Origin: Torpedo marmorata
Lineage: Eukaryota
DNA: 64,000 nucleotides
NCBI GenBank assembly: GCA_977017645.1
Contig: OZ360221.1
Location: 112,654,001 to 112,718,000, forward strand
Reading direction: 5' to 3'
A program made the position numbers and the translations under genes. This document shows positions 24,401 through 59,584 of this stretch, in pieces. How positions within the stretch are numbered: the stretch's first letter is position 1; each line of letters begins with the position of its first letter. Below the pieces are notes generated by a model. The model saw nothing but the letters and a program-made list of their open reading frames with translations. It had not been told where the DNA came from and searched no databases.

Positions 24401-24694
24401 TTCATAATATCCTTGCTTAGTTCTTTCAATTAATTTTTCCATTTTATATGTTTGTAACATATTATAATGCAATTTTTTCCCAATTAAATTTTTCCTTTTT
24501 TCTTCTGATCTATTTTTTTGCAAGTCCTTCTCCAAGAATTCAATCTCCCTCTCCAAATTATCCACCTCCCGAACATATTCCTTCTTAACTTATTATTTGG
24601 CCTCTTAAATAAGCCTTTAAAGCTTCCCAAATAATACATTTATTATCAATCGAATTAGAATTAATCTGTAAAAATTCTTGAATTTCTCTTCTTA
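21495..24694 (-). mobile_element. L1-clade LINE, 5'-truncated and frameshifted ORF2
   Basis: TRQGCPLSP, ISLFADDVLIY and CFRC..EGSFVHFTWFCP motifs; A-rich tail; flanking direct repeat gcagtg(t/c)tatgtt at 21482-21494 and 24695-24707. Same family as 55164-61079. Confidence 0.93.
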
Positions 24695-24913: not shown

Positions 24914-25163
24914 TGTGGTAAACCACTTTTGTATGTATTATAGCCTGAGGCAAGGATGACCATGACCTGTCTGTCTGTCCCGGTGACTCCTCCCCCTTTA
25001 CCTGGAATAAAGGCCTTGAGCCAGCAACTCCTCCCCAGTTCCGGGACAATCCAGCAGGGATCAACCAGGTCAAGGTATAGCTAGCCCTGGCTTTGATTCT
25101 GTTAATAAAAGCCTGTTAATTCCTGCACTTCCAGACTCGCGTCTGTTATTGATAGGCATATCA
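24914..25163 (+). mobile_element. Solo LTR of the Gypsy family at 32918-37653
   Basis: TG...CA, 250 bp, closely similar to that element's LTRs; 5-bp TSD GTTCC on both sides. Confidence 0.95.
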
Positions 25164-32917: not shown

Positions 32918-35900
32918 TGATATGCCTATCAATAACCGACACGAGTCTAGAAGTGCAGGAATTAACAAGGCTTTTATTAACAGAATCAAAGCCAGGGCTG
33001 ACTATGCCTTGACCTGATGATCCCTGCTGGATTGTCCCGGAACTGGGGGAGGAGTTGCTGGCTCAAGGCCTTTATTCCAGGTAAAGGGGGAGGGGTCACC
33101 GGGACAGACAGACAGGTCATGGTCATACCTGCCTCAGGCCATAATACATACAAAGTGGTTTACCACATTCACCCCTTCTTTTAGAACAAGTCCGACGGTG
33201 GGGTGAAGTGGAAAACTGTAAAAAGAGAAGAGAAAAAAAAAATACAAAATACATAGATAATATACAGTTTTTACAGGTCGAGTTTCGCCGGCGGCCGGAT
33301 TTGCCGCCGTGACCTCCGTAGCGCCAGCGGGGATGGTAGTGGTTGTGGAATGAGGGTACGAGTGAAAATACGTGATGCCCGCGGGGATGATTGTGGCTGC
33401 GGGATGGGAGTAGGTACAGTAGGGTGGATCTGGGGCTGGTTCGCCTCCTGCCTGGCTAGTGGCCAGTACAGCTGTGACGGGGACAACGTCGTGCTGGGAG
33501 GCGGATGGTCCGGAGGGGGCAGCTGCGACCCGGCGTTCCCGCTGTCGGGGACCTCTTCAGACGCTCCTGCAGGCGCCAGGTCCCGTATTGACACCGTGTC
33601 TTCCCGCCCATCGGGGAGAACCACGAATGCGTACTGCGGGTTTGCATGGATCAGCTGCACCCTCTCGACTAAGGGCTCGTACTTGCTACTCCGAAGATGT
33701 TTGCGGAGTAGCACCGGCCCCGGGGACGTCAGCCAGGCAGGGAGTGTAGTCCCGGTGGTCGATTTTCTGGGGAAGGAAAAGATACGTTCGTGAGGGGTAG
33801 TGTTAGTGGCGGTACATAAGAGGGATCGTATAGAGTGGAGGGCGTCCGGGAGAACCTCCTGCCAGCGAGCCACTGGCCACCCTTTTGCTTTGAGGGCCAG
33901 TAGTGTCGCTGTCCATACTGTGGCGTTCTCCCTCTCCACTTGTCCGTTCCCCCGTGGGTTGTACGCCGTGGTCCTGCTGGTAGCGATGCCTCGGGTCTGC
34001 AAGTGCTGTCGCAGCTCCCCGCTCATGAACGCGGACCCCCGGTCGCTGTGGACATAGCTGGGGAACCCGAACACGGTGAAAACCTGGTGGAGAGCCTTGA
34101 TAGCCGCCGCCGCCGAGGTATCTGGGCAGGGGATGGCAAAGGGGAACCGCGAGTACTCATCAATGATGTTGAGGAAGTACACATTGCGGTTCGTGGAGGG
34201 GAGGGGGCCCTTGAAGTCTATACTGAGACGTTCGAACGGGCGGGTGGCTTTGACCAGCTGTGCTCTGTCGGGGCGGTAGTACTGCGGTTTGCATTCCGCA
34301 CAGACTCGGCAGCTGCTGGTCATGGTCTTGACCTCATCCAGGGAGAAAGGCAGGTTCCGTGCTTTAATAAAGTGTAACAGCCTGGTGACTCCTGGGTGGC
34401 AGAGGTCATTATGTAGGGCGTATAACCGGTCGATCTGCGCGCTGGCGCACGATCCCTGGGATAGAGCGTCAGGGGGCTCGTTGAGCTTCCCGGGCCGGTA
34501 AAGGATGTTGTAATTGTAGGTGGAGAGTTCTATTCTCCACCTCATGATTTTATCATTTTTAATTTTACCCCGCTGCTGGCTGTTAAACATGAAAGCGACG
34601 GAGCGCTGGTCCGTCAGCAGGGTAAAATGTTTTCCGGCGAGATAGTGCCTCCAGTGCCGGACAGCCTCGACAATGGCCTGGGCCTCTTTCTCTACCGCGG
34701 AGTGCCGAATTTCGGGGCCTTGAAGGGTGCGGGAGAAAAACGCTACCGGTCTTCCCGCCTGGTTGAGGGTAGCAGCCAGTGCGAAGTCCGAGGCGTCACT
34801 CTCTACCTGAAAAGGTTCCGACTCGTCCACCGCGTGCATCGCTGCTCGGGCGATGTCCCCTTTTATGAGGTCGAAAGCCTCACGTGCCTCCGCTGCCAGG
34901 GGAAACTTGGTGGATTTGACGAGGGGTCGGGCTTTGTCCGAGTAATTTGGGACCCACTGTGCATAATAGGAGAAAAACCCGAGGCATCGTTTAAGTGCTT
35001 TGGGGGTAACGGGGATCGGAAGTTCCAACAGGGGGCGCATGCGGTCGGGGTCGGGTCCAATCACCCCGTTTTCCACGACGCACCCCAGGATAGCGAGTCG
35101 GGTAGTCCCGAACACGCATTTCTCCTTGTTATATGTGAGGTTCAGCGTCTCGGCCGCCTGTAAGAACTTCCGAAGGTTCCTGTCGTGATCCTGGCGATCA
35201 TGACCACAGATGGTGATGTCGTCCAGGTACGGGAAGGTGGCAGTGAGCTTGAACTGATCAATGATCCTGTCCATCTCCCTTTGGAACACGGATACCTCAT
35301 TTGTTACCCCGAAGGGGACGCGCAGAAAATGGAATAATCTGCCGTCCGCCTCGAAAGCGGTGTATACTCGGTCCTCCCGGCGGATTGGGAGCTGGTGGTA
35401 AGCCGACTTAAGGTCGATGGTGGAGAAGACTTTGTATTGAGCAATCTGGTTGACCATGTCCGCGATCTTTGGCAGCGGATAGGCGTCCAGTTGCGTGAAC
35501 CGGTTGATGGTCTGGCTATAGTCCACCACCATCCGGCTCTTAGCCCCGTTCTTCACCACGACTACCTGTGCTCTCCAGGGGCTGTTACTGGGTGCAATGA
35601 TCCCTTCCCCCAGCAAACGCTGCACCTCCGCCTTAATGAATGCCCTGTCCCCTGCACTGTATCGCCTACTTTTAGTTGCGATGGGCTTACAGTCAGGGGT
35701 CAGGTTGGCGAAGAGTGGCGGGGGTTGGGTCTTTAGTGTGGAGAGACCACAGGTAGTCTGGGGCGTATTAATTAAATATTGGGGGTTAGTCACAACGATT
35801 GGGGGGTGGGGCCCATCATAGTGCATGGTGACGCTACGCAGGTGGCTTTGGAAGTCCAATCCCAGCAATACAGGAGCACACAAACGGGGCATGATTAACA

Positions 35901-37653
35901 ACGAAAACTCCCGATATTCCGTGCCCTGTACCACTATATTCGCCACACAACGCCCCCGGATGTCTGTTGTGTGCGTTCCAGACGCCATGGCCACCCTCTG
36001 GCTTACCGGTACAATGGTGAGGCCACAGCGCTGGGCAGTGTCTGGGTGTATAAAACTTTCTGTACTGCCTGTGTCGAACAGGCAGGTGGTCTTATGCCCC
36101 TCAACGAGAATGTCCATCATGGATCTGGACAGTTGATGGGGCGCGTTCTGGTCCAGCGTCACGGATGCCAGGGTCGAGACGAAGTCTTGATCTTGATCCG
36201 GTGGTAGCTCCCGTGGCTCGTACGTGTCGCTACGAGGGGGTGGAGCCGGGAGTGCTGGAAGTGCTGCGGTGAGATTATAAAATGGCCGCGCCGGAAATGT
36301 AGAGATCGGATGTGTGGACCAAGATGGCCGCCTCCAGTCCTCACACGAGGTCTCCTCAGGAAGTGACGTCGGGTAAGATGGCCGCCCCCTCCCGTCGCAC
36401 GTGGCGCTGCTGGAAAACTGAAGTGCTGCGTGCTGTGATGGCTGCCTCCAGACCTCACACGAGGTCTCCGCCGGAAGTGGAGTCGAGTAAGATGGCCGCC
36501 CCCGTACCTCGCACGCGGCGCTGCTCGGACCCGTGCGCGACTTGGAGCGGCAGACCTTAGCATAGTGGCCTTTCTTGCCACAGCTAGAACAAGTCGCGTC
36601 TCGGGCCGGGCAGCGCTTGCGCGGGTGCTTGTCGAGCCCGCAGAAGTAGCACTTCTCGGGCTCCCGGGAGATAGCGGCAGCGGTTAACTCACGGGTAGCG
36701 GCGGGCTCTCGGGCAGCGGCGGCAGCGGCCAACTCACGGATAGCGTCGGCGGCGGCGAGCGGGTCCCGGTAGACGGCAGCAGCCGTCGCGTTGCTTGTAG
36801 GGCTGACGGTTGGGGCGATCCAAGAAGCAGGCTGCGCCTGCATAGCGTCAGCGTTCTTTAGGGCTGAGTCCAGATTCAGGATGTTCTGGACAGTCGATTT
36901 CAGGGTCAGGTCGGCGTGTTCCAGCAATCGCTGGCGGATGTAGCCCGACCTGATCCCTTTTATGATAGTGTCCCTTGCCAGAATCTCGGAGTGTTGCTCA
37001 GCCGTCAGGGCTCGACAGTCACACGCTCGTACCAGGAGCATCACGTCCTGGATATATTCAGAGACCGACTCTCCGGGTCGCTGGTACCACTGCGATATCC
37101 GGTGCCTTGCGAAAATCTCGTTCGCAGGCGTCATGTACAGCGTTCGGAGGGCGAGCAAGGCATCATCAAAAGTCCCACAGTCTCTGACGGCGCCATACAC
37201 TCGCTTGCTTACCCTGGACATGAGGATATCGAGTTTCTGCTCGTCGGTAGCCGCTCCGGACGACCTCACGTAGGCTGTGAAGCAGCGTTGCCACAGTTCG
37301 AAATCGCTTGCAGCGTCTTGGGCCAGGGGGTCGATGTCTAGCTTGTCTGGCTTTAACAAATTCTCCATTGATTCGTATTTTTTGTTGAAACTGTTAATAA
37401 AATTGATATGCCTATCAATAACTGACACGAGTCTAGAAGTGCAGGAATTAACAAGGCTTTTATTAACAGAATCAAAGCCAGGGCTGACTATACCTTGACC
37501 TGATGATCCCTGCTGGATTGTCCCGGAACTGGGGGAGGAGTTGCTGGCTCAAGGCCTTTATTCCAGGTAAAGGGGGAGGGGTCACCGGGACAGACAGACA
37601 GGTCATGGTCATACCTGCCTCAGGCCATAATACATACAAAGTGGTTTACCACA
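32918..37653 (-). mobile_element. Full-length young Ty3/Gypsy LTR retrotransposon
   Basis: 250-bp LTRs at 32918-33167 and 37404-37653 (2 differences seen by eye); TG...CA termini; 5-bp TSD ACCAC; polypurine tract next to the 3' LTR (33168-33182); single long ORF. Confidence 0.97.
33271..37368 (-). CDS. Gypsy Gag-Pol polyprotein in a single frame (Gag, 2 zinc knuckles, PR, RT, RNase H, IN)
   Basis: CYFCGLDKHPRKRC and CSSCGKKGHYAKVC; LFDTGS; YLDD; SDAS; H..CHPG...CRVC; SIDFKGP, HSDRG, GQVER. First ATG downstream of the LTR is at 37368. Confidence 0.93.
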   Translation of the reverse strand: MENLLKPDKLDIDPLAQDAASDFELWQRCFTAYVRSSGAATDEQKLDILMSRVSKRVYGAVRDCGTFDDALLALRTLYMTPANEIFARHRISQWYQRPGESVSEYIQDVMLLVRACDCRALTAEQHSEILARDTIIKGIRSGYIRQRLLEHADLTLKSTVQNILNLDSALKNADAMQAQPASWIAPTVSPTSNATAAAVYRDPLAAADAIRELAAAAAAREPAATRELTAAAISREPEKCYFCGLDKHPRKRCPARDATCSSCGKKGHYAKVCRSKSRTGPSSAACEVRGRPSYSTPLPAETSCEVWRQPSQHAALQFSSSATCDGRGRPSYPTSLPEETSCEDWRRPSWSTHPISTFPARPFYNLTAALPALPAPPPRSDTYEPRELPPDQDQDFVSTLASVTLDQNAPHQLSRSMMDILVEGHKTTCLFDTGSTESFIHPDTAQRCGLTIVPVSQRVAMASGTHTTDIRGRCVANIVVQGTEYREFSLLIMPRLCAPVLLGLDFQSHLRSVTMHYDGPHPPIVVTNPQYLINTPQTTCGLSTLKTQPPPLFANLTPDCKPIATKSRRYSAGDRAFIKAEVQRLLGEGIIAPSNSPWRAQVVVVKNGAKSRMVVDYSQTINRFTQLDAYPLPKIADMVNQIAQYKVFSTIDLKSAYHQLPIRREDRVYTAFEADGRLFHFLRVPFGVTNEVSVFQREMDRIIDQFKLTATFPYLDDITICGHDRQDHDRNLRKFLQAAETLNLTYNKEKCVFGTTRLAILGCVVENGVIGPDPDRMRPLLELPIPVTPKALKRCLGFFSYYAQWVPNYSDKARPLVKSTKFPLAAEAREAFDLIKGDIARAAMHAVDESEPFQVESDASDFALAATLNQAGRPVAFFSRTLQGPEIRHSAVEKEAQAIVEAVRHWRHYLAGKHFTLLTDQRSVAFMFNSQQRGKIKNDKIMRWRIELSTYNYNILYRPGKLNEPPDALSQGSCASAQIDRLYALHNDLCHPGVTRLLHFIKARNLPFSLDEVKTMTSSCRVCAECKPQYYRPDRAQLVKATRPFERLSIDFKGPLPSTNRNVYFLNIIDEYSRFPFAIPCPDTSAAAAIKALHQVFTVFGFPSYVHSDRGSAFMSGELRQHLQTRGIATSRTTAYNPRGNGQVERENATVWTATLLALKAKGWPVARWQEVLPDALHSIRSLLCTATNTTPHERIFSFPRKSTTGTTLPAWLTSPGPVLLRKHLRSSKYEPLVERVQLIHANPQYAFVVLPDGREDTVSIRDLAPAGASEEVPDSGNAGSQLPPPDHPPPSTTLSPSQLYWPLARQEANQPQIHPTVPTPIPQPQSSPRASRIFTRTLIPQPLPSPLALRRSRRQIRPPAKLDL

Positions 37654-39322
37654 ACCACCTCACTAAAGCTCCTGTCTATGATGCTCTCAGCATCTTGGAT
37701 ATTCCTGAGTAAGTTCAAATGCATCTTCAGCTGCTTCCTGCAGGTAAAGGGTTCATGTTCTGCAAGAGAAGATGACAACTGCTCTGACTGCCACCTCTAA
37801 AACCACTATGATTACAGAAGAAAGTATAAGAACATGCTCTATATTCCCACTATGCAGACTCCACTTTGAACCTTCTCCAAAATTCAGCACATGCACAATA
37901 AACACATCCACTCTCACAATGGCTGCTGCAAAATAATTGGTCTGCTATATACGTAAATTTATAAGGCAATATGGCTTTGCTTTGAAGCACATGTGGCAAG
38001 GTATCAAAACAATAACAGACCACAAGAGAACCTTGTGAGTTAATGACAATGACACCTCCCTTCCAGACGCACTGAACAACGTCTACATATGGTTTGACGA
38101 GAAGAACAGGCTGACACCAAAGAAAGCTCCTTCTCCCCTTGAAGAGCAGGCCGCTTGTATAGCTGGTGCTGAGCTGAGGAGGATCCTATCCAGGATGAAT
38201 CCATAAAAGGTAGTGGGACCAGACAATGTACCCAGCCGGGTACTGAAGAACTGTGCTGACCAACTGACAGCGGTCCTTACAGAGATCTTTAACACATCCT
38301 TGCAGCAGTCCATCGTCCCTGTATGTTTCAAGGCAGCCACCATCATCCCAGTACCAAGGAGGGTGACAGTAACAGGCCACAATGACTATCGCCCAGTGGC
38401 ACTAACCAGATTTCAGATTTCAGATTTATTGTCAGAGTACATATATGACATCACATACAACCCTGAGATTCTTTTTCCTGCGGGCAAGGCAGAATTACCA
38501 CTTATTCGTAGTGCAAAAAAACTGTACACAGCGTATACATGTAAACAAATAAAGAAATGTAAACAGATAACAAATGTAAACAAACTGACTGTGCAATATA
38601 GAGAGAATTTAAAAAATCAATAAAGTGCATAAGTAAAACTCCTTAAATGAGGCCCTGATTGAGTTTGTTGTTGAGGAGTCTGATGGTGGAGGGGTTGCAG
38701 CTGTTCCTGAACCTGGTGGTGCGAGTCTTATGGCACATATACAGGTACCTCTTTACTGATGGCAGCTGTGAGAACAGAGCGTGTGCTGGGTGGTGTGGAT
38801 CCTTGATGATTGCTGCTGTTCTCCGGCAGTGGCGTTCCCTGTAGATGTTCTCGACAGTGGAGAGGGTTTTGCCTGTGATGTCCTGGACTGTGTCCACTAC
38901 CTTTTAGAGAGCTTTACGCTCAGGGGTATTGGTGTCCCCATACCAGACCATGATGCAACCGGTCAGCACACTTTCCACCACACATCTGTAGAAATTTGCC
39001 ATGGTTTCTGATGTTATACCAAACCTCCGCAAACTCCTGAGGAAGTAGAGGCACTGATGTGCTTTCTTCACGATGCCGTTAGTGTGTTGGGTCCAGGAAA
39101 GATCCTCCGAGATAGTGACTCCCAAGAACTTAAATTTGCTCACCCTCTCCACCTCTGATCCCCCAATGATCACTGGATTGTATACCTCTGGCTTTCCCTT
39201 CCTGAAGTCAACAATCAGCTCCTTAGTTTTGGTAACATTGAGTGCAAGGTTGTTGTTGGTGCACGATTTGGCCAAGTTTTCAATCTCCCTCCTTGTATGC
39301 TAACTCATCACCTTTCTTTATA

Positions 39323-40309: not shown

Positions 40310-40556
40310 TGTGGTAAACCACTTTATATGTATTGTGCCCTGAGGCAGGTATGACATGACCTGTCTGTCTGTCCCAGTGACCCCTCCCCTTTTACCTGGA
40401 ATAAAGGCCTTGAGCCCGCAACTCCTCCCCCAGTTCCGGGACAATCCAGCAGGGATCATCAGGTCAGGTCATAGTCAGCCCTGGTTTGATTCTGCTAATA
40501 AAAGCCTGTTAATTCCTGCACTTCTCGACTCGTGTTGGTTATTGATAGGTACGTCA
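40310..40556 (+). mobile_element. Solo LTR of the Gypsy family at 32918-37653
   Basis: TG...CA, same LTR sequence, 5-bp TSD CCACC. Confidence 0.95.
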
Positions 40557-43119
40557 CCACCGTAGATGTGTTGCTACGATAGGCGAACTGAAACGTATTC
40601 ATGTCACCGCTCAGGCAGGAGCTGATATGCTTCAACACCAGCCTTTCAAAACACTTCATCACTGTTAATGTAAGTGCTACTGGTCGATAGTCATTAAGGC
40701 AGGTTACTACACTCTTCTTGGGCACCAGTATGATTGATGCCTGTTTGAAACAGGTGGGTGCCACGCCCTGCTGGAGTGAGATATTGAAGATATCCGTGAA
40801 TACATTGGTAAGTTGGTCAGCACAGATTTTTAATGCTTGGCCAGGTATTCCGTCCGGGCCGGATGCTTTCCTCGGATTCACTCTCCTGAAGGCAGCAAAC
40901 ACGTCCTCCTCAGATACAGACAGGATGGGATCATCAGGGGACGTGCAGATGCGGAGGGGTTACTTCGCAGTTACTGTCGTCAAATCGGGTGTAGAAAGCA
41001 TTGACTTCCTCTGGGAGCGAAGCTTTGCCATCTGCTACTTCACCGGATTTGGTTTTGTAGCAGGTTATGTAATTTAGGCCCTGCCACAGCTGTCCGGTGT
41101 CCCTTGGTGTTTCCATTTTCATCCGGAATCTCCACTTCACCTGGGAGATAGCTATTTGCAGGTCATACCTGCTCCTTCTGTACTGATCTGGATCTCCGGA
41201 CTTAAATGCCTGTGATCTAGCTCTCAGCAGGTTATGGATTTCATTGTTCATCCAGGGCTCTGGTTGGGGAAAACCCTGAATGATTTGGCGGGGACACACT
41301 CATCCACAGCTGTTTTTATAAAGTCTGTGACAGCCCTGGTGGCATCGTTCAGATTTTCAGCTGAGTCCTTGAACACCGCCCAATCTGCTGACTCGAGGAA
41401 GTTCTGTAACCATTCTTCAGCCTCCTGTGACCACCTTCTAGCTGTCCTGATCTCTGGAGCCTCTCTTTTTAGGCTCTATCTGTATGAAGGCAGAAGGACC
41501 ACAGCCAGGTGATCCGACTTGCCAAAGTGTGGTCTCGGGAAAGAACGGTAGGCCTTCCTTATCTTGGTGTAGCAGTGATCGAGTGTGCTGGGTCCTCTGG
41601 TACAGCAGGTTACATGCTGGTGATAGTTGGGTAGGGTTTTCTTGACACAGGCCTGGTTAAAGTCGTCGACTAAGATTTGTAGTACGTCGGGCCTGGCCGT
41701 CTCTTGTTTACTAACCACATCATGCAGCTCCGCAAGTGCCTGTTTGTAATCGGCATCGGGAGGGATATAAACTCCGGTAAGAATCACTGATGGGAACTCT
41801 CGGGGTAGATAGAAGGGTCTGCATTTAATTGAGATTTTCTCTAAGGCAGTAGAGCAGGAGGTCGACATAACTCCAATGTCCGTGTACCACCCAGTATTAA
41901 CGAAAAAGCACACACTGCCCCCTCTTCCTTTTCCAGAATCTGAGTTCAGATCCAGTCTATGAATGATGAAACCGTCTGGTCAGAACCTGCACCATTATGA
42001 AATGCTTTGAGCTTCTGGTAACGGAACATGTCAAAGCACACCTCCCAGAGACATTGGACCCATTTCAATTCACCTACAGACAGAAGCATTCACTGATGAT
42101 GCTATAGCCTTGTCCCTCCCTCCGTCCTGACCCACCTGGAGAAAGACACCTCAGATGCCAGTCTGCTGTTCATTGACTTCAGCTCGGCGTTTAATACAAT
42201 AATACCCGAGAGGCTGGAGGAGAAGCTGTCCTTGCTAGGACTCAACACACCTCTTTGTAACTGGATTCTGCACTTCCTAATGGAAAGACAGCAGTCTGCC
42301 TGGGTTGGCAGTAGAACGTTCAGCACCATTACGCTGAGCACTGGCAAATCTCACTGCTCAGTCCGCTCCTGTGCATGCAACTGACCCACGTCTGCAAAGG
42401 CAGATACATTTCCAACAGAGTCATCAACTTTTCTGATGGCACAACAGTAGTTGGCCTCATCAGCAACAACGATGAACTCATGAACTGGTGCGAGAATAAT
42501 TACCTGCGTCTCAAAGTGGATAGGACAAAGGAGATGATTGTGGACTTCAGGAGGACCAGGAACACCCACCCTCCACTACACATTAATAGCTCGGTAGTGG
42601 AGAGAGTGGAGACCACCAAGTTCCTTGGAGCCCACTTAAGAAGTGACCTATCCTGGACTCAAAACATCTCCTCAGTTGTCAGGAAGGCCCAACAGTAACT
42701 GCGCTTCCTTAGAAGGGTGAGGCGGGCAAGGCCTCCAGCCACCATTCTGTTCTACAGGAACTCTATCGAGAGCGTCCTGGCCGGCTGTATCACAGTGTAG
42801 TACAGTTGCTGTAGAGCTTCAGATCGGAGGTCAATCCACAGGACCATAATCACTGGGGTCACCATCCCGCCCCCCACCTCCCCCCCCAATCCCCCCTCCC
42901 CCCATCAATGGGATTTACCGGCATCATTGTTGTGTGGGAAGGGAAAGGTTCAGTGGGTTCAAAGAATAGTGGGTCTGGACACAGGCTGAATGCAGAAACA
43001 ATATTTATTGTAACACACATAAGTAAGGGGATCGCAACATGGACAACATACGCAAGTATTCTCAATCACACAACACAGTGCAACCAGTCACATCGCACTT
43101 ACTTCCGATACACACACGA

Positions 43120-43306
43120 CTGGTCAGTACTTGGAGAGGAGACCGCCTAGGAACACCAGGTGCTGTAGGTTTCTGTGAGGGGCGCTGGACAAAGTAGCGA
43201 CTCTCTGTCTGCCTTACAGTAGACAAAAATTAAAGAATTTCATGTATGTTACATTCTAAATGTAATATTATGTGACAATAATGGAACCTTTACCTTTACC
43301 TTTACC
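43120..43306 (+). mobile_element. 5'-truncated 5S-rRNA-derived SINE (SINE3-like)
   Basis: ctggtcagtacttggagaggagaccgcctaggaacaccaggtgctgtaggttt matches the 3' ~50 nt of vertebrate 5S rRNA; followed by a LINE-like tail and (tttacc)n. Confidence 0.82.
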
Positions 43307-43482
43307 AGTAACAGTTTACACTCTTACAAGCACAGTACAATCTGGTCACATCAGACTTAATACTATGGATACTAGCAACTGTTTATACAGGCTTATCACA
43401 ACTAAGGATTACAACGCGCTACCCGCCGTTCCTTGTCTAACGTGGGCACAGCTCAGATGCTATCTACAACTACAACAGTATA

Positions 43483-43856
43483 CAGGTGGTCCCCGACATA
43501 CGTCCGAGTTCCGTTCTGACCAATAGGTTGGATCTCGAAATGGACGTTAGTCGGACATATGTTACTCCGGGCCTGTGCTCACCTCCCCCACCTCGGACAC
43601 CGGGTCTGCCACCGCCTTCGTGTCCCGAAAATAAAACACATTCGGCGGCAGCGGTGTCTCAGCGCCCTCCCGGCCCGTGGCCGCTGCCATGTTGGTCCGT
43701 CAAAATAAACAGCCCCTGGATCCCCGGGACCTGACGCGTAATTTTTATATTTACATCTATTTTTTTCTTTATTTTTTAAAATTTATACAGTATTATTTTT
43801 CGGTCGTATGTATGGATGGTCATAAGTCGCCTAGGTCGTAATTAGGTGACCACCTG
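43483..43856. mobile_element. Tigger/pogo-like MITE
   Basis: TIRs CAGGTGGTC.CC / GGTGACCACCTG with TA TSD at 43481-43482 and 43857-43858. Confidence 0.85.
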
Positions 43857-44309
43857 TACAACAGCCCCGATCCCTCTGTAGTGCACATCTTACAAACGAC
43901 TCCTCCAGCATTCTCCACAGCAGGGTTCATCTCAGAGCTGAAGAGCAAAAGAGGAAGAGTTACTGCACATGGTGGAATTTGTAGTGCAGTAAGCTGGAGG
44001 GTCCGGCCCAGGTAATCACCAGGTGATTAAAGGGGCTAATGGTCAGGTGTGCACTAATGGGTGGGCAGAGTCCAACCTTGATTGGCAGGTGATGCGACCT
44101 CTGACTAGGTTCCAGGCGGAGAGATCACGTGACCCTCCACAATCCACACTCCCACCAGGTTCCAGACATAGAGGTCACATGACCATCCACAATCCACACT
44201 ACATTCAACCCCTCCAAAGTCACACCACTCGCCAATCATTAAAAAAACAAGTAAAAACATTATTACAAAAAATAAATGAATACATTGTTACATAAGGTAA
44301 ATACATTGT

Positions 44310-45288
44310 TACAGTACAAGTGCCTGGTGAATAAACAGATAGACACAACAGAAGAGTGAAGGTATTGTTTCAGAAAATGACAACCGCTTACCAACTCCCC
44401 ACAGACCAAAAGGGCCCTTGTTCTCCCCATGGAGTGTCGTGCTGCAGGATCTGGCCTTCTATCTGTTTGTTTTTTTTGTCAGTCACTGACTCTCATATGT
44501 GGTCTTGCTGATTTGCCAGGGACGTTTGTGCACCACGTCTCACTGACAACAGCACCGGTACCACCTTCGTCTGTGAGCAGGTAGTGCAAGGTCATTCGGC
44601 TTTCCCTTCATCCAAAGTACCACAGCCCTTTCTTTGGCCAGCATTTTCACTGTGGCTATTCATCCAGGTGCTCCCCCATTGTTTGGAGGCACACATCCCA
44701 GATGGCTGCCGCTGTGCTGTCCCGTGGGAAGCCAGGGGTCGGCCCGGCAGACACGCATCCAGGGCATAATGATATTCTTGTAGGAGTACCCCCGTTAGCT
44801 GGGCTGTGGACTGTCAACCACCTCGTGCCAGGATGGCGTTCCTGGTCACATTCCCACTGTTCGCTTGGACCACATTGCCAAGGCGTGCTCCCTTTGTGCA
44901 CCCACTGGGAGAGTCAGGATTGTTTGTGTGCCGAATTGTATGGAGGGGAAAAATAAACCAGTTCCTGACGCACCCACCCCATCAAGGATTATTGGAAGTG
45001 AGGTGGTTAAGTGGTGAGGGGAGTCGAAGAACACCGTCATTACCGAAACATTTTGATTGAAGAGTCCATACAAGCAGCGCCTGTAGCTGTCGTCAAGTGG
45101 GGTCGGCATAGGTGGAAATCCTCAGCTGCGTGTGCCGGTGCAGTAATGCAGGTGCCGCAGTCTGGTGAGGTGGTGCTTCGTGCATATTCGTAGGCTTCCA
45201 CAGTGCCGATCAGCGTAGGCTGGAAGAGGAGCAGCTTGAAGGGTAGGCTTCTTCTGTTGGGTGGGGGGTTCTGGGAGAACTCACTCAC
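44310..45288 (-). pseudogene. Decayed, internally deleted gamma-type env
   Basis: Hydrophobic leader LPFKLLLFQPTLIGTVEA; CXXC (DCGTC, 45148-45159); ISD/CX6CC-like ESRMTLHYLLTDEGGTGAVVSETWCTNVP (44518-44604); terminal hydrophobic stretch. Confidence 0.7.
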
Positions 45289-46835
45289 TTCTGGTGAGTT
45301 GGTTAGTGTGGCAACATGAAAGGTTCGATTCGCCCGGTATCACGACCCATCGCGTTTCGCCTGGACCAAGCGCAATGATCTTTTTTTCAGCGGACCCTGT
45401 GGCTGCTGCATCCACACTCTATCAGACTCCTCGGGGTCTTGCATGTCGATTTCATCAGTTTTGGGAGCATCGGAGGATGCCAGGTGGCGTAAGAGTGGGG
45501 AACTCCCCTGCCCAATCTAACTGGTCTACTGCCTGCTGGAGCACACGAAGCCACCCCTGCAATGTATGTTCAGGCGTCAGTGTGTGAATTTTCTTTTTAA
45601 GTAGACTATTTCTACGTTCTATTAAGTAAGTTGCCTGTGGGTGGTCGGGGATGTGCAGCAGCCATGAGATACCATCCTCCACTGCTCAATTCTGTATTTT
45701 AGTCCCCATGAAGTGAGTTCCTTGGTCAGACTGTACGGTACTCCATAAATGGAAGAGAGGTATTGTAGCCCTTTAATGGTACTGTCCTGGTCGGCCCTCT
45801 GGCAGGGCACCACCACCAGAACACCCGAGTTTGTGTCGACCATTGTGAGCATGTATTGCTTTTTATTTTGGCATGGGAGCGGCCCAACGTAGTTGACCTG
45901 CCATACCTGGCCTGCTCCCGTGCCATGGCAAATGTGACCCGGTGGACGTGATGGCCAGCCCCGTGGTTTGGCCTGCTGGCAGGTGGAGCAATTGTCCACC
46001 GTGGTTCTAGCCTTGTCATGCATAAGTGCCACCACTACACCCTCTGCCCACCGTTGCGTGCCGTGGGAACCCAGATGCCAGCTCTTGAGGTACGCCCATG
46101 TTGCCAGTGCACTGACGTCAGTGTGATCGGGGTGCAGGGTGGCTGAGCACATTTGTGCTGCGCAGTCCATGGCAGCACTGTGCACAGCCTCCGCCGTATC
46201 TCCGTTGGTGTGCGCGTCCACATGGTGGACCATTGGCACTCTCTGCCCAGCCTGCTCCCAGATAAACCACCAGTGCTGCTGACCCCAGAGCGGGCGACTC
46301 TGAATCTTCCAGCCCGTGTCGTGCCACCGGGCCATCATACAGCCATGCCGTTGGCCACTGCCCAGGAGACAGTGTAAATACGGATAGGGTCTGTGGTTTC
46401 TTGGAGGGTGAGTGCTACTGCGGCCAGCTCAGCCAGCTGACTGGATCCTCCCATCCCCTCTTGTGTAAGTGTCTTACCCAGGCTACGGGGGAGGGGTGTA
46501 CTTGCAGGGACCTGTGGAGGGGGAGCGTCACTTTCGGGGAGGGACACGACCTGCTCGTGCAGTCAGCTCACCCCCTCAGAGCTGGCTTTGGCGCGGTCCA
46601 CGATGTACCACTTCCACTTTCCTATGGAGGACCTCTGGGCATGTCCCTCCTTGTGGGCAGCATCGGCGGACTTGACCCTGGCATGATGGGGAGGTGAGGT
46701 CGGAGTGTGATGGTCTCGGTAGCTGTTTGGTGCTCGGTGGCGAGGAGCACTAGGTAGCATACTAGCAGCTGATGCTCGAATGGGCTGTAGCAGGACGCGG
46801 CCTCAGGAAAGGTCTTGGTCCAGAAGATGTTTCCT

Positions 46836-47019
46836 NNNNNNNNNNNNNNNNNNNNNNNNNNNNNNNNNNNNNNNNNNNNNNNNNNNNNNNNNNNNNNNNN
46901 NNNNNNNNNNNNNNNNNNNNNNNNNNNNNNNNNNNNNNNNNNNNNNNNNNNNNNNNNNNNNNNNNNNNNNNNNNNNNNNNNNNNNNNNNNNNNNNNNNNN
47001 NNNNNNNNNNNNNNNNNNN
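46836..47019. other. Assembly gap (184 N)
   Basis: Run of N. Confidence 1.
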
Positions 47020-51360: not shown

Positions 51361-54300
51361 TTTAAAAATTGAATGAACATGGTACATTCAAAGGGGAAGT
51401 TTGCTTTAATCAAAACGACGATAGGTGTGATATTTGGATTGGAAAGTATGCAGAGCTGAGAACTAGGGGTTCAACTTGCTGGAGTTCTAACTATTCCACA
51501 TCCTGTGTTCTTTCCAAAATCAGCTAGAATTAAAAAGTGAGTAACATCTAGAATTAGAAAGATCAAGATCAAGATTCAATTTATTGTCATGTAATAAAAA
51601 CTGTGTCATATTACACAAAATTGCCTTTTGCCTGCTGTAAGGCAGACAGATTCGCCATCGACAGAAATTGCCTGAAGGGCCTCTTACAGTCAGAGAAAGA
51701 GAAGCAAAAGGGAGTCCCCCCAGAGTCACTGAGTGTCCGTGGTGTCGTGTATTTTCCCTTTGGAAATAACCTCACTCGAGCGAAGCTGTAAGCATGTCTT
51801 TATTCATTTGAAGATGGCGCCAAACTGAAACTCTCCCCACAATGCACACCGCTTACCTGACGTCACCAGTACATGCGCGTTCCCACAATGCTCTGCGTAC
51901 CTGACATCAAGCGCGCATGCGCGTTCCCATAACACTCTTCCCCCTCAAACAAATGTTTTGTTCTTACTGGTAAATAAGTATAAAGTTAAAATTAACAATT
52001 CTGACACTACATAGAATTTAACGATGTTAACACTACAGAGAATTTAACTATAACTTCCACTAATCATGGTAACTATAGATCCCGCGCTACTGAAAACATG
52101 CAAAGTCTTTAAGTCATTGAACATAGTCTTTTAGATGTACTGGAGGGTGTATTTCTCTCTTGGATCTTCTCGGGGATGAAGAACACCGAGCTGGAGAACG
52201 ACTTTTCAACTCTTCTGGAGCAGATAACGTGCTGGCTGGCACTACTAGCTGTGTGTCTGGTATTTGACTGGCATCTTGCTCCTGTGCCGCCGGTACCGGG
52301 GCTATCTCAGGGGCATCATCGTCGGGTTGTGCCCAAACTGGAACGTCTGGGGGATCATCCGCAATCAGAACAGAGATGGAGTCCACGATTGCTCTTAACT
52401 GGTCGATGTGTTGTTTCCATATCTTGTCCCCTACAAGTACCGAATATGAACATGGACATAGTTTCTTTAGGAGCACGCCTTTTATACATGTTTCTTTATT
52501 CTCCCGGTAATCCCTTACTAATACTCTTTCTCCGATCTCCAGAGCTCTTGTTGGCTTACTCGGGGATGTCAACTGTTGAATACGAAGTCCGATGTTTGGG
52601 TGCACTGCAGTAAGTCGGGTTCTCAAGTTGTGTCCAAACATCAATTCTGCCGGCATGCAATTTGTAGTGGAGTGCAGTGTTGTTCTGTATGATAACAGAA
52701 AGTCTGCAATTTTATGGTTCCATGATATGTTACATGACTTCTTTGCTTTCATTGCTCTTTTAAACGTCTGCACGAAGCGCTCTGCTTCCCCATTAGTACT
52801 AGGATGGTAGGGTGCAGATATTATGTGTCGCACATTGTTGCCTCGCAGAAACTGTTTGAAAGCATCTGACACAAATTGAGGTCCATTGTCTGAAACCAGT
52901 TCTATGGGTAATCCATACCCTGTGAACACACCTCCTAGTTCCTCAATTGTTTTCTCCATTGTCGTTGTCCGCATTGGCACTACTATAAGCCATTTGGAGT
53001 GTGCATCAACAATAATCAGGATATTTTCCCCCATAAATGGACCAGCGAAATCAATGTTAATTTGGTGCCATGGTTGCGATGGCCATTTCCATGGGTTAGC
53101 TTCGGCCTGGGGTGCCTTCGGTTGCATTTCTTGGCAGATGTGACATCTCCGCACCATCTGTTCAATGTCACTGTCCATCGATGGCCACCAGACATGCATG
53201 CATGCCAGCGCCTTCATCCGGACCATTCCTGGATGATTGGTGTGGAGCTCTTTTAGCACGGCCTCTTGCCATTTCTTGGGGATGATTGTTCTTGTTCCCC
53301 ACAACAGGCAACCCTCTTCAATTTATATTTCATTTCGCCACATGTGATAAGATTTCAATTCGGGGGTAATACTGTCGGCCTCTGGCCACCCATTCAAGGT
53401 GAAGTATAGAATCTTCGACATTGTAGCCTCTTTCCGTACCTCTTTGCTGATAGCCTTCGCTGTAACAGGCAAGTGGTGAAGTTGTTCCTGGTTGATCGCT
53501 GTGGCTTCTGCCATCCCATTAATGTTCCCTTCCGCCTGTTCTGTCTCAGGCAGAGGTAAGCGCAATAATGCATCCACATGGCCGTTCTTGTCTGCCGGAC
53601 GATGCTTTAGGTCATAATCATACGCTGCAAGCTCCATCGCCCATCTTTGAATTCTCTCCGCCGCTAACACAGGAATGCCTTTCTTGGGGCCTAAGATCAA
53701 GCTCAGTGGTTTATTGTCCGTCACTAAAGTAAACTTCCTACCATATAGTTATTGGTGAAATTGTTTAAGTCCAAAGATTATGGCCAGTCCTTCCTTCTCC
53801 AGTTGTGCATAGTTCCGTTCACAGGCTGTCAAGGAGCGGGAAGCAAATGCAACCGGTTGTTCTCCCTTTTCTGTGACTTGTGACAATACCGCACCTAAAC
53901 CAACAGGTGAAGCATCAACAGCAAGGGTCACTTCTTTGTCTGGGTCATAATGAACGAGAACATTGTCCCTTCAGGTCAGCAGTTTCTTCAAGCGATTGAA
54001 AGCTTTGTAGGTTTCTGCAATCCAGCACCATTTCTGGTCTTTTTTCAACAATTGGTTGAGCGGGTTGCACAGCGTTGACATGTTAGGGATGTGCTTTTGG
54101 TAATGGTTAACCAAACCTAAAAATGATTGTAACTCAGCTCGATTTGATGGGCAAGGTGAACTGCGGATGGCTTCGGTGCCAGCTGTATCCATCCTGACTC
54201 CTTCACGGTCAATCGTAAATCCCAAATACGTCACTGAGGGTACCATAAATACACACTTGTCTTGATGCAGTCGGACTTTAGCCTGTTCTAACCTGGCTAG

Positions 54301-55355
54301 GACTTTTTCCAGGTTTTTTAGGTGCTCTGCATCGTCCCGACCCATTATGATGATGTCACCTGGGTAACATCCAACATTTAGTCCTTGCAATAGTTTGTCC
54401 ATGACAGCATGAAATATCTCTGGAGCTGATGATATCCCATATGGCATCCTGGTGTAAGTGAACAATCCCAGGTGAGTGTTGATAGTCACATACTTCCTAG
54501 ATTCGGGGTCCAATTTGACTTGTTGATATTCTTGTGATAAGTCCAATTTTGTGAAGTTTTTCCCACCATTCAGAGCTTGAAATAATTCCTCCACTCTCGG
54601 AATGGGATGTCCGGGAACTTTCAGCGCTTGGTTAATTGTGACCTTATGGTCCCCACAAATTCAAATTTCACCATTGGGTTTTCTGACCGGCACAATAGGA
54701 GCTGCCCAGTCGCTGTACTGAAGTTTCTCGAGAATTCCTTCATTTTCTAATCTGTTGAGCTCCATTTCAATTCCTTTTTTTATCGCAAAAGGTACCGTTC
54801 TTGGCTTAAAGAACTTAGGTTTTGGCTTCTGGTTCCAATTGCAATTTTACCTGGACTCTCTGAATTTTTCCCAGGTCCTTCTCAAAAACTGTCTGATACT
54901 TCTGAAGCACCTGCTTCAGCTTTGATTTCTTTTCACCCACAGTTTGTACATTCTTCACCTCAACAATTTCCTTCCAATCCAGTTGGTCGTGCGACAACAA
55001 ATCCCTTCCAAACAAGGCGGGTCCTTTCTTTGTTTGTCCCTTATACTCGATGTCTACTTTACATTTCCCTAGCACTTTGACTTTCTCTCCGGTAACCGTC
55101 TTTAACACTATGTCCGACCGTTTCATTTCAAGTTTGGCCAGTAGTTTGTCTTTCAGATCTTTCTTTTTTTAAAAATATTTTATTTAACATTTTTAAATCA
55201 CACAGTACACAGTTTAAAATGCAAATTTATCAAATTACATGTGATACATTTTCACCCCCCCCTCCCTCCCTCCCTCCCCTCCCTAACCCTCCCGAAAAGA
55301 AAGAAAGAAGGAAGAAAAAGATAGAGTAAGGAGAATGTCACTCTAAAAAGAACAA

Positions 55356-58300
55356 CTATAAACTGATTTTATTGTGGAGGATAGGTTCACCAGTCAGATC
55401 CGATGTCCAGAGATCTAAAATCCTTAAACCAACAGTTTTTATATATGGGCTCCATACTTTCAAAAAGAAATTATATTTATCACGTAAATTATATGTAATT
55501 TTTTCGAGTGGTATACATGAACGCAATTCTGCATGCCATCTTTCCAACCCTAAATCTACATCCGACTTCCATGTAATGGCAATACATTTCTTAGAAACGG
55601 CTAAAGCAATACGTAAAAATTCTGTCTGATACATATTTAATTTCACTTTAACACTGGTTCCTTCAATATCTCCAAACAAAAATATCATAGGATCCATTGG
55701 GAGTGTAACTCCCAATACCCTATCCAAAAACTTTTTAACCTTCAACCAAAAATCATACACTTTTGGACAAAACCATGTGGAGTGTACAAAGGAACCTTCC
55801 TCACTATTACATCTAAAACATAAACCAGATAACGTCGGATTAAATTTCTTTAGTCTTTTAGGCGTTAAATACAATTGATGAAAAAAATTATATTGCACCA
55901 ATCTATATCTAACATTAATAATCTTCATCATACTTTGTTTACATAATTTTTTCCAGTGTTCTTCATCTATTGTTACATTCAAATCTTTTTCCCAATTTAA
56001 TCTTGATTTATGAATTCCTGTTTTAGGAAATTTCCTCTGTAACAATCTGTACATTTGAGAAATAAATTTAGGCACACCTCCATTAGTAACTAATAATTCC
56101 AATTCAGTCTGTCTTGGTAAGGTCAAACCATGACCCAACCTTTCAACTAAAAATGCCCTAATTTGATAATAAGCAAAGATTGTATTATTTGCTACACTAA
56201 ACTTATCTTTCATTCTCTGAAACGTAATAAATTTACCAGCTTCAAAACAATCATTTATTTCCCTAATACCCTTTTGGAACCAGATTTTAAATAATTGATT
56301 ATCAACAGTAAATGGGATAAGTTTATTTTGATACAGAGGCATTCTTCGAGAAATTGATCCTTTCGCTCCTATTTCTCTATCCACTCTATTCCATATTTCT
56401 AACAAATGCCTAAAAATAGGAGAATTTTTCCCTCTAATTAATAATAATTTAGAATTCCATTTATAAATTACTTCTTTCAAATCCTCTCCTATATTATTTA
56501 ATTCTATTCTCATCCAAGCAGAGAGCTTCCCTAAATCAAACAATTTGTTAATAAATTTTAGTTGGGCTGCTTTATAATAATATTGAAAATTAGGAAGCTT
56601 TAGACCACCCATTTCAAAATTCCAGGTTAATTTCTCAAATCCTACTCTAGCCAACTTTCCTTTCCACAAAAATGTCCTAATAATTAAATTTAAATCCTTA
56701 AAAAATTTCTGAGGGATTTCATAAGGAATTGATTGAAAAAGATATTGAATTCTCGGAAAAACATTCATTTTAATACAATTTACCCTTCCCATTAGAGTTA
56801 TAGGTAAATCCTTCCAACTCTCCAGATCTTTTTTTATATTCACAAATAATGGTAAATAATTTAATTTATACAAATTGGATAATTTTGTATCAATCTTTAT
56901 TCCCAAATATTTAATTCCTTCCTTTGACCATTGAAATGGTGTAATTTCTTTACAATCACTATAGTCCCCTTGTGTTAAAGGCATAATTTCGCTTTTATCC
57001 GAGTTAATCTTGTAACCAGATATTTCCCCAAATTCCTTCAATAAAACAGACAATTGTATTAGAGAATTAATAGGTTTTGTCATATATATCAATACGTCAT
57101 CTGCAAACAAACTAATTTTGTGTTCTTCCTTACCAACTGTAATACCTGCAATCTTAATATCTTGTCTAATTAATTCGGCTAAAGGTTCTATTGCTAAAAT
57201 AAACAATGCTGGCGATAAAGGACAACCTTGTCTAGTAGACCTAGTTAAGGAAAATTTTGAAGATATTTGTCCATTTGTGACCACTCTAGCAGACGGTTCT
57301 TTATATATAGTTTTAATCCAATTAATAAATGTATTTCCAAATCCGAATTTTCCCAGTACCTTAAATAAATAATTCCACTCTAATCTATCAAAAGCCTTTT
57401 CGGCATCTAATGTTAATACTAATGACAGTTCTTCTCTTTTTTGTGCCACGTTTATTATACTAATTAATCTAGCGATATTATCTTTTGAGTATCTGTTTCT
57501 AATAAAGCCTGCTTGATCTACATGGACTAAATCTGGTAAATACTTAGCCACTCTATTTGCTAAAATTTTCGCCATTATTTTATAGTCCACATTTAACAAC
57601 GATATTGGTCTATATGATTGTGTTTTCAACAAGTCTCTATCTTTTTTCGGTATAAACGTTATTAATGCATTTGAGAAGGTTTCCGGTAGAGAATGAGTCT
57701 CCGTTATTTGTTTTAACACCTCCATATAAGGAGGTATCAATAAGTCCTTAAATTTCTTATAAAATTCTGATGGGAAACCATCCTCCCCCGGAGATTTCCC
57801 ACTTGTTAAGGAATTAAGAACCTCATTGACTTCCCTCATGGTGAATGGTGAATCTAAAGATTCTTTACTACGTGTATCTAACCTGGGCATCTTAATTTTG
57901 GATAAAAATTTGTTAATTTTAGAATCATCTTCATCGGCTTGAGATGTATATAAATTCAAATAAAAATCTTTGAAAGAGTCATTTATTTCTCGCGGTTTAT
58001 AAGTGATTTTCTTAGAATTCTTTTTTATAGCCGTTATAGTTCTAGAGGTTTGTTCTTTCTTTAATTGCCAGGCTAAAACTTTATGAGCTCTTTCTCCCAG
58101 TTCATAATACCTTTGCTTAGTTCTTTCAATGAGTTTCTCCAATTTATATGTTTGTATCGTATTATAATATAATTTTTTTCTCAATTAAATCTTTCTTCTT
58201 TTCTTCTGATCTCTTTTTTTGTAGATCCTTCTCCAAAAACTCAATCTCCTTCTCCAAATTATCCAATTCCTGAATATTTTCCTTCTTAACTTTTGCTGAA

Positions 58301-59202
58301 TAACTTATTATCTGACCTCTTAAATAAGCTTTCAAAGCATCCCAAATAATAAATTTATTTTCAATGGAATCTGCGTTAATCTGTAAACATTCTTGGATTT
58401 CTCTTCTTATATATTTACAAAAATCCACTCTCTTTAGTAAAGAAGAGTTAAACCTCCATTTATATATAATTTTTTCTTTTTCTGGAATTATGCATGACAT
58501 TAATAAAGGCGAATGGTCAGAAATTAATCTAGCCTTATATTGTACTTGAGTCACCCTATCTTGTAATTGTGATGACAGCAAAAACATGTCTATTCTAAAA
58601 TAAGAATCATGTCTAGAGGAATAAAAAGAGTAATCTTTTTCTCTCGGATTCAACTTCTTCCAAATGTCAATTAGATTCAGGTCCTTCATCATAGTGAGAA
58701 TTCTTTTAGCAGTTTTAGTTCTAATGATTGATTTGGATGTTTTATCGATTACTGGGTCTAGACAACAATTAAAATCTCCACCAATTAAAATATTATCGTA
58801 TGCCTCTGACAAATGCATAAAGGAATCTTGAATAAATTGATCATCTTGCGTATTCGGCACATATATATTCATAAGAGTCCACATTTCTGAATGTATCTGA
58901 CAGTTTATTAAGTCATATCTTCCTGACCCATCAGTAACCACCGAATGTATTTTAAAGGGTAGCTTCTTATTAATTAGTATAGCAACCCCTTTAGCCTTGG
59001 AATTAAATGAAGACGCTACCACTTGACCAACCCATTCTCTTTTCAACTTCTGATGTTCTAAATCAATCAGATGCGTCTCTTGTAATAAAGCTATGTCCAC
59101 ATTTAGTTTTTTGATGTATGCTAAAGTTTTCTTCCTTTTAATCGGATTATTGAGCCCATTTATATTGATACTAACTACATTTATTAATTTACTGTCCGCC
59201 AT
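55356..59202 (-). pseudogene. L1 ORF2 (APE endonuclease, RT, Cys-rich end) split by one frameshift near 58170
   Basis: SININGL, LQETH, GGDFN, ISDHSP in 58162-59202; DAEKAFDR, TRQGCPLSP, FADD, CFRC..H..WFCP in 55356-58184. The break falls at an A run. Confidence 0.92.
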
Positions 59203-59584
59203 TGCTGATATATAATAACTTTCTCTCCCTCAGATCTGCTGGCTCCCCCTTCCACATCTGTAAACTATTTGACATCTCCTTAGAAAGAAAAAGAGAAAAG
59301 GATATAAAAAGAGAATAGAGAACTAGAGAACCCACTATATATAATACTGGTAAATTTACACCAGTACTACCCCCCTCCATTGCTCGGGAAGTGGCCCTCG
59401 CCACTAAAATGACGCGTGACTAGGTCGAGGAAGACAAGAAGTCCACCTCCCCATACAGATTTCAAACAAATTATGTTATCGTCTCTTCGTCTAACAACTT
59501 CAAGATCTCTATTAATTTAATCCTCATCGGTTACTACCCCATTTTCTTGCTCCAAAACTCTTGGCGAGAGCAATTTTGAGCCAG

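What the first reader, a model, noticed from the sequence alone, without database searches (positions are those of the whole stretch)
42928..46835. Class III (ERV-L/HERV-S-like) endogenous retrovirus in an apparent cartilaginous fish
Seen: the minus-strand pol remnant reads FWTKTFPEAASCYSPFEHQLLVCYLVLLATEHQTATETITLRPHLPIM / HKEGHAQRSSIGKWKWYIVDRAKASSEGVS. It continues with an RNase H (SSQLAELAAV, IYTVSWAVANG, WKIQSRPLWG, VHHVDAH), an integrase, and a C-terminal IIALGPGETRWVV. Known (from memory): these match ERV-L pol signatures such as FWSKALP...YSPFERQLLACYWAL, HAQQHSIIKWKWYIRDRARAGPEG and YTDSWAVANGL, and a tether followed by a separate RNase H marks a true retrovirus, not a Gypsy. Inference: ERV-L/S-like viruses are mainly described from amniotes, and the chondrichthyan ERVs I know of are epsilon-like or foamy-like, so this may be an undescribed deep or cross-species lineage.
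Basis: partly seen in the sequence, partly recalled or inferred. Interest (0 to 1): 0.82.

Follow-up and report, generated by a model that had tools for sequence, protein, structure and literature searches.

The report
Fossil ERV-S-like retrovirus in electric ray
This is the broken back half of an old, dead retrovirus in an electric ray's genome, one of many copies of a family that likely spread by copying itself inside cells after losing its envelope gene; its type (ERV-L/ERV-S-like) is already known from frogs, mammals and likely sharks, so it adds a host rather than a new kind of virus.

Summary
The host is an electric ray: RAG1 is 94% identical to Narcine. At least 40 copies exist, all old (LTR pairs differ by K2P 0.11-0.14). 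Other copies show a YIDD-type RT, a tRNA-Ser primer site, TGT…ACA LTRs of about 700 bp and 5-bp target duplications. That is the anatomy of frog XtERV-S; the serine primer and class I env also match HERV-S. RT trees place the family among ERV-L/S-like elements, apart from epsilon and Gypsy, in a ray clade with a stingray protein and four sister families of this genome. RT-IN has no shared stops, while env lesions are shared, so the family likely spread after env died. The lineage is not new to cartilaginous fish: Xu 2018 lists a whale-shark ERV beside HERV-L/HERV-S, and white-shark RefSeq proteins carry the same signatures. No named foamy, snakehead, HERV-L or XtERV-S sequence was in my trees. 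This scan had not reported it before. Verdict: new member of a known kind.

The parts
46480..46835 (-). pol remnant: tether (degenerate first RNase H), frameshifted
   Evidence: RT_RNaseH_2 weak on copy L012 (E 0.052) and above cut-off on relative P0122
46200..46479 (-). pol remnant: retroviral RNase H, lacking about 120 nt that hold its first catalytic motif
   Evidence: Pfam RNase_H E 7e-10 on copy L021
45283..46199 (-). pol remnant: integrase (HHCC, core, C-terminal domain); pol stop at about 45283 shared by 9 of 12 copies; no dUTPase follows
44310..45340 (-). env remnant of gamma (class I) type: signal-peptide-like stretch, CXXC, SU pieces, immunosuppressive domain, membrane-proximal part; furin site/fusion peptide segment not detected; frameshifted
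   Evidence: tblastn with sister-family env pieces, best E 2e-11 at 44604-44376. No Pfam hit on the remnant itself. Signal-peptide reading is by eye
44204..44215 (-). polypurine tract
   Evidence: same place in 7 other copies shown
42928..44203 (-). 3' LTR, TGT…ACA, about 700 nt once two later insertions are set aside
43485..43856 (.). 372-nt secondary insertion in the LTR
   Evidence: joint skipping 376 nt seen in three runs
43112..43296 (.). 185-nt secondary insertion in the LTR, a young high-copy repeat (96% match in L035)
46836..47019 (.). N run at the 5' break of the element; unrelated LINE DNA follows

Best explanation
This is a dead, 5'-truncated provirus of an old multi-copy class III (ERV-L/ERV-S branch, clade Huo) retrovirus family in an electric ray, built like frog XtERV-S, and the family likely multiplied by retrotransposition inside germ cells after its envelope gene had already been wrecked. 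Shown: the family's layout is LTR, tRNA-Ser primer site, gag, pro, RT, tether, RNase H, IN, env remnant, PPT, LTR (about 7.2 kb), with 5-bp target duplications and many solo LTRs. RT-IN has one frame free of shared stops, while env carries lesions common to the copies. Inferred: an enveloped ERV-S-like virus entered the ray germ line; a derivative with a broken env copied itself with its own Gag-Pol in one burst; the copies then decayed neutrally; this copy later lost its 5' half and gained two insertions in its LTR. It most likely has no function today.
For: Family: 40 of 40 scored candidates match, main pieces 74-89% apart from the window itself (1129 first-look candidates); LTR search 40 scored of 4213 candidates. 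Primer site matches a tRNA-Ser(TGA) gene of the same genome. 5-bp TSD: 9 exact and 12 within one mismatch of 16 solo LTRs with intact ends (of 24 solo, 29 examined); 0 of 16 for 4 or 6 bp. RT trees: host copies sit with a stingray protein (UFBoot 98-99) inside an ERV-L/S-like clade (92-95), apart from WEHV1 and Gypsy. The window's own tether-IN piece falls in the same family. RT identity is 52-59% to stingray, 44-50% to HERV-L-like P0015, 26-31% to WEHV1, 20-23% to Gypsy. Age and burst: LTR pairs K2P 0.114, 0.135, 0.136 (3 copies); 190 pairwise distances among 20 copies, median 0.153, star-like tree (terminal 1.52 vs internal 0.146). Pol: in 11 copies one frame has no majority-shared stop over about 900 codons, while the other two have 24 and 35. 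Env: the furin/fusion segment of the sister env is matched in 0 of 12 copies; the CXXC-to-ISD distance is 547-593 nt in 6 measurable copies against 801; the same out-of-frame shortening before the ISD is in 7 of 8 measurable copies; cysteines of the CX6CC motif are missing in all 5 aligned copies.
Against: No named HERV-L, MuERV-L, HERV-S, XtERV-S, snakehead or foamy sequence could be put in the trees; calling P0063 and P0015 HERV-L-like rests on the baboon source label and on motifs I recall. Backbone supports inside the class III clade are weak and change between trees (49-100). The PR-RT junction and gag could not be shown to be in frame in the progenitor (too few measurable copies; frame change in column space at a C run), so autonomy is not proven. 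The env remnant has no Pfam hit and only a non-significant PDB hit (E 1.6); its identity rests on the sister family. Only 20 of an unknown number of internal copies were read.
Confidence: 0.8

Rival explanations
1. Same identity, different spread: the env-broken family was carried by particles or envelopes supplied in trans by an env-bearing sister family (family B) and spread by reinfection, or it was fully non-autonomous.
For: The genome holds a sister family at about 64-73% nucleotide identity whose env keeps CXXC, furin site, ISD and CX6CC. Gag and PR frames of the window's family were not shown open.
Against: RT-IN has no shared stop over about 900 codons, which suggests selection on the family's own enzymes until the burst. 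In two copies PR and the RT start read in one frame.
Confidence: 0.12
2. It is a deep, chondrichthyan-specific lineage that co-diverged with sharks and rays and is ancestral or sister to amniote ERV-L/S.
For: Electric-ray families and the stingray protein form one clade (UFBoot 99, 88). With the slow rate assumed by Han 2015 (2.2e-10 per site per year) the LTR pairs would date to about 260-310 My.
Against: White-shark relatives group with a toadfish element and amphibian elements (UFBoot 100 and 96), not with the ray clade, whose sister there is a lizard element (100). The ray clade is nested, not basal. Xu 2018 report frequent host switching in clade Huo. At the mammalian rate the age is only 26-31 My.
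Confidence: 0.06
3. It is a foamy-like, snakehead-like, Loki or Gypsy element with a chance resemblance to ERV-L.
For: Those references were not named in my trees. Chondrichthyan ERVs of snakehead-like and epsilon-like type are published (PMC4422223).
Against: RT hits class III-like proteins at E 1e-48 but solved foamy RT only at 1e-12, no better than MLV-type RT. YIDD, the serine primer and a gamma-type env are ERV-L/XtERV-S traits and not foamy ones in PMC8278194. Gypsy identity is 20-23%.
Confidence: 0.02

Closest known systems
XtERV-S of African frogs (Yedavalli 2021, PMC8278194; read abstract, first two parts of the text with Table 2, and passages)
   Same: LTR about 700 bp bounded by TGT…ACA, tRNA-Ser primer site, 5-bp TSD, ERV-L-type gag/pol with YIDD and tether, no Gag zinc knuckle, class I-type env with CXXC near the start of SU. 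The sister ray env has CWIC at 39, furin 234, ISD 302, CX6CC 319 of 412 aa, against 40, 251, 327, 344 of 441.
   Different: Old and dead rather than intact; no dUTPase after IN; env broken in the family's progenitor; separate ray clade. The XtERV-S sequence itself was not compared.
HERV-S (Vargiu 2016, PMC4724089, passages; primer from PMC5210030, passages)
   Same: Class III pol, class I env, no dUTPase, serine primer.
   Different: Host; no named HERV-S sequence was aligned here.
Rh_ty_ERV3 of the whale shark (Xu 2018, PMC6001957; parts 1-3 of 5, S2 Fig labels, first ~400 letters of the S2 Data entry)
   Same: Chondrichthyan host, listed beside HERV-L/HERV-S in clade Huo; gag homologous (about 25 of 60 residues by eye).
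   Different: A different family; its pol and 3' end were cut from view, so whether it belongs to the ray clade is untested.
ERV-L (HERV-L, MuERV-L)
   Same: RT 44-50% identical to HERV-L-like P0015; YIDD; 5-bp TSD; TGT…ACA; likely env-less amplification.
   Different: ERV-L has a dUTPase after IN and no env (PMC8278194, PMC4724089); this family has an env remnant and no dUTPase.
Hemitrygon akajei XP_072911374.1 and Carcharodon carcharias XP_041058168.1 / XP_041060598.1 (RefSeq, uncharacterized)
   Same: Same pol signatures; the stingray protein is the nearest database relative (57-59% RT to this family, 71-74% to sister family B).
   Different: Not annotated as ERVs; the white-shark element lies in another sub-clade (43% to the window).

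Membership tests
Retroviridae (ERV, not Ty3/Gypsy) | RT groups with retroviruses; tether plus separate RNase H; env | tested here: met
Class III ERV-L/ERV-S branch (clade Huo) | RT clusters with ERV-L/S-like elements apart from gamma/epsilon | tested here: met
   UFBoot 92-95 for the clade; references labelled by host only
Class III ERV-L/ERV-S branch (clade Huo) | Placement against named HERV-L, MuERV-L, HERV-S, XtERV-S, snakehead and foamy sequences | not testable with these tools
   no call returned these as named, usable sequences; viral-contig scan empty
Class III ERV-L/ERV-S branch (clade Huo) | YIDD active site | tested here: met
   (motif or a one-residue variant at one column in 8 of 11 copies)
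Class III ERV-L/ERV-S branch (clade Huo) | 5-bp TSD and TGT…ACA LTR ends | tested here: met
   9 exact, 12 within one mismatch of 16
Class III ERV-L/ERV-S branch (clade Huo) | No CCHC zinc knuckle in Gag | tested here: met
   0 in 9 of 9 copies scanned; copies are decayed, so this is weak
ERV-S type (HERV-S, XtERV-S) | tRNA-Ser primer binding site | tested here: met
   (4 copies shown: one exact over 16 nt, three with 1-3 changes); also in runs X2, X3
ERV-S type (HERV-S, XtERV-S) | Class I (gamma-type) env | tested here: met
   remnant homologous to TLV_coat-positive env of the sister family
ERV-S type (HERV-S, XtERV-S) | gag-pol read-through stop; pro in frame with pol | tested here: inconclusive
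ERV-L proper | dUTPase after integrase, no env | tested here: not met
   pol stops at about 45283 and env overlaps its end; relative P0122 does have a dUTPase
Epsilonretrovirus-like (clade Mu) | RT groups with WEHV | tested here: not met
   26-31% identity, separate clade
Spumavirus-like (clade Tu) | RT closest to foamy RT; foamy-type env; usually tRNA-Lys primer | tested here: not met
   no foamy row in the tree

The most novel reading that the evidence does not exclude
The window's family belongs to an unreported, ray-specific radiation of enveloped ERV-S-like retroviruses (at least five families in this genome plus a stingray relative) that entered the germ line before electric rays and stingrays split. 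It would be among the oldest datable retroviral lineages, and would show that the class III pol plus gamma-type env design is ancient and marine, with env loss and intracellular spread arising independently of mammalian ERV-L.
Probability: 0.2. Interest if true: 0.6.

Novelty: new member of a known kind. Interest (0 to 1): 0.32.

Why it matters
It adds electric rays to the hosts of ERV-S-like retroviruses and gives a clean natural example of env decay preceding a burst of copies, beside a sister family that kept env landmarks. XtERV-S was presented as an unusual transitional form; finding the same design in rays suggests it was widespread. The single window copy is an ordinary fossil with no sign of function.

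Tried and rejected
Reading the 1 kb after integrase as a novel accessory ORF: rejected once sister-family env pieces matched it. Pfam and PDB searches of the env remnant alone: nothing significant. Protein atlas: not answered twice. Viral-contig scan for named retrovirus references: 122 pattern hits, none confirmed. The first TSD count was off by 3 nt in register and was redone. Motif-spacing test of pol frames had too few copies in 7 of 20 intervals and was replaced by the shared-stop count. Orthology of this insertion in four runs with four coded organism labels: no listed contig bridges the LTR-flank junction (table cut), so no verdict. No RNA holder listed. Search for the missing 5' half in the window and next 30 kb: none. 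Literature searches found no paper on this family or on electric-ray ERVs; Repbase, Dfam and most subscription journals could not be searched, and the supplement of PMC6001957 shows only the first ~400 letters of each sequence. Earlier scan notes: one unrelated shark ERV of snakehead type, no sequence match.
Full report
Observation. A caecilian class III Pol aligns across 46825-45515 in four pieces at E 1e-74. Pfam gives sub-threshold integrase hits on the window and above-threshold RT, RNase H and rve hits on other copies. The element ends exactly at 42928. Upstream of the 184-nt N run lies LINE DNA; the 5' half is absent from the window and the next 30 kb.

Host. The genome is 6.2 Gb. Its RAG1 core is 94% identical to Narcine bancroftii, 89% to a stingray and a skate, 85-88% to sharks and at most 81% to bony vertebrates. 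The host is therefore a batoid, most likely an electric ray.

Family anatomy. A DNA search scored 40 of 1129 candidates and all matched, main pieces at 74-89% apart from the window itself. I read 20 copies as 10-kb stretches. The full element is about 7.2 kb: LTR of about 700 nt, primer site, gag, pro, RT, tether, RNase H, IN, about 1 kb more, PPT, LTR. The primer site is complementary to a tRNA-Ser(TGA) gene of the same genome. Of 29 LTR loci examined, 24 were solo; of the 16 with both ends intact by my filter, 9 have an exact 5-bp duplication and 12 are within one mismatch, against 0 for 4 or 6 bp (one excluded locus also had an exact 5-bp match). No CCHC knuckle was found in 9 of 9 gag regions. 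The window's LTR carries two later insertions, and its RNase H lacks about 120 nt that 16 of 20 other copies show.

The env remnant. The 1 kb after IN gave no Pfam or significant PDB hit. A TLV_coat search of the genome returned 78 matches; 10 of the 12 fetched lie beside pol DNA 64-73% identical to this family. Their TM pieces match the window at 44604-44376 (best E 2e-11). With one such env as ruler, the furin/fusion-peptide segment is matched in 0 of 12 copies, the CXXC-to-ISD distance is 547-593 nt in the 6 measurable copies against 801, and one out-of-frame shortening is shared by 7 of 8 measurable copies. In contrast, 11 copies with long pol coverage have one frame free of majority-shared stops over about 900 codons of RT-IN, the other frames having 24 and 35. 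Env was thus already broken in the progenitor while RT-IN was not. Gag and the PR-RT junction could not be settled.

Age. Three LTR pairs differ by K2P 0.114-0.136, or 0.09-0.11 without CpG sites. Twenty copies have a median pairwise distance of 0.153 on a star-like tree. With the two rates quoted in PMC4422223 (first of two parts read) that is 26-31 My (mammalian) or 260-310 My (assumed shark). PMC10587355 (passages) gives 7e-10 per generation for a shark but no yearly rate. The age is only bracketed.

Phylogeny. Homologue searches returned relatives from frog, caecilian, killifish, medaka, toadfish, bichir, turtles, lizard, birds, baboon, bat, stingray and white shark. Of 255 stored proteins, 177 spanned the RT core and 87 remained after de-duplication; with 10 of 16 host copies and the window's Gypsy, FastTree put the host copies with the stingray protein (support 1.0) in an ERV-L/S-like clade (1.0). 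IQ-TREE on 48 hand-picked rows agreed (98 and 92). Adding 11 loci of other families from this genome (42 rows) gave one ray clade (99) holding the window's family, families B-E and the stingray protein. A tree of the RT end, tether, RNase H and IN start, anchored on P0122, with two rows dropped for short overlap, included the window copy itself: it falls in its family (90) in the ray clade (88), sister to a lizard element (100), while white-shark elements group with a toadfish element and amphibians. Shark and ray elements are therefore not one clade here, which fits host switching. Backbone order varies between trees. The only named virus in the trees is WEHV1; foamy is excluded by scores and features, not by a tree.

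Mechanism. Shown: layout, primer, TSD, shared env lesions, open RT-IN frame, star-like copies, solo LTRs. Inferred: an enveloped ERV-S-like virus entered the germ line; an env-dead derivative amplified by intracellular retrotransposition; copies decayed; most were reduced to solo LTRs by recombination. That env loss favours intragenomic spread is stated in the review PMC10536682 (passages), which cites Magiorkinis 2012 (not read). Help in trans from family B remains a rival.

What is known. XtERV-S (PMC8278194) has a 705-bp TGT…ACA LTR, serine primer, 5-bp TSD, ERV-L-type gag/pol and class I env. HERV-S has a class I env and no dUTPase (PMC4724089, passages). Xu 2018 state that clade Huo infects all major vertebrate lineages and list a whale-shark ERV beside HERV-L and HERV-S; I saw label order and the start of its sequence only. 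PMC11089739 (passages) reports that most chondrichthyan ERV RT loci are clade III, a group that may also include foamy- and snakehead-like elements. PMC10699275 (first part), PMC5210030, PMC1224870 and PMC10435555 (passages) added no account of this family. Searches found no paper on it; repeat libraries could not be checked.

Verdict. What is likely unreported is the ray radiation, its ERV-S-type anatomy, and env loss before amplification. Interest 0.32.

Noticed in passing
G000 loci L076-L107: At least four more ERV-S-like families (B-E) at about 64-73% nucleotide identity to the window's family. Family B carries a TLV_coat-positive gamma-type env and groups with the stingray protein (UFBoot 100). 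The RT search showed 116 matches from 110 scored candidates; the env search 78 matches.
   Followed up: partly
window 32918-37659 (-): Young Ty3/Gypsy element with a 1425-aa open frame and LTRs 98% alike; related solo LTRs at about 24928-25166 and 40310-40556. Used as outgroup.
   Followed up: partly
window 55356-60463 (-) and 21761-24589 (-): Two copies (about 88% alike) of an AT-rich L1/Tx1-like LINE; the first has open stretches of 942, 355 and 292 aa. Family name by recall.
   Followed up: no
window 52114-54660 (-): A second, decayed Gypsy-type pol with RT and integrase pieces.
   Followed up: no
L033 (G000:C11:193462300-193472299): Aligns to the window without the RNase H gap, so it may share the ~120-nt deletion; it also has a 58-nt tandem array inside integrase.
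   Followed up: no
L022 and L029; L039 and L040: Two pairs of copies are closer than the rest (K2P minimum 0.072; support 1.0), possibly later duplications or sub-families.
   Followed up: no
P0127 (Logan protein, 1374 aa): An ERV-L/S-like Pol that by eye carries inserted kinase-like segments (thymidylate- and thymidine-kinase-like motifs, recalled) and a dUTPase-like end; an odd gene-capture candidate.
   Followed up: no
P0416/P0142 (white shark RefSeq): White-shark class III Pol groups with a toadfish element and near amphibian elements, a possible cross-class transfer.
   Followed up: partly
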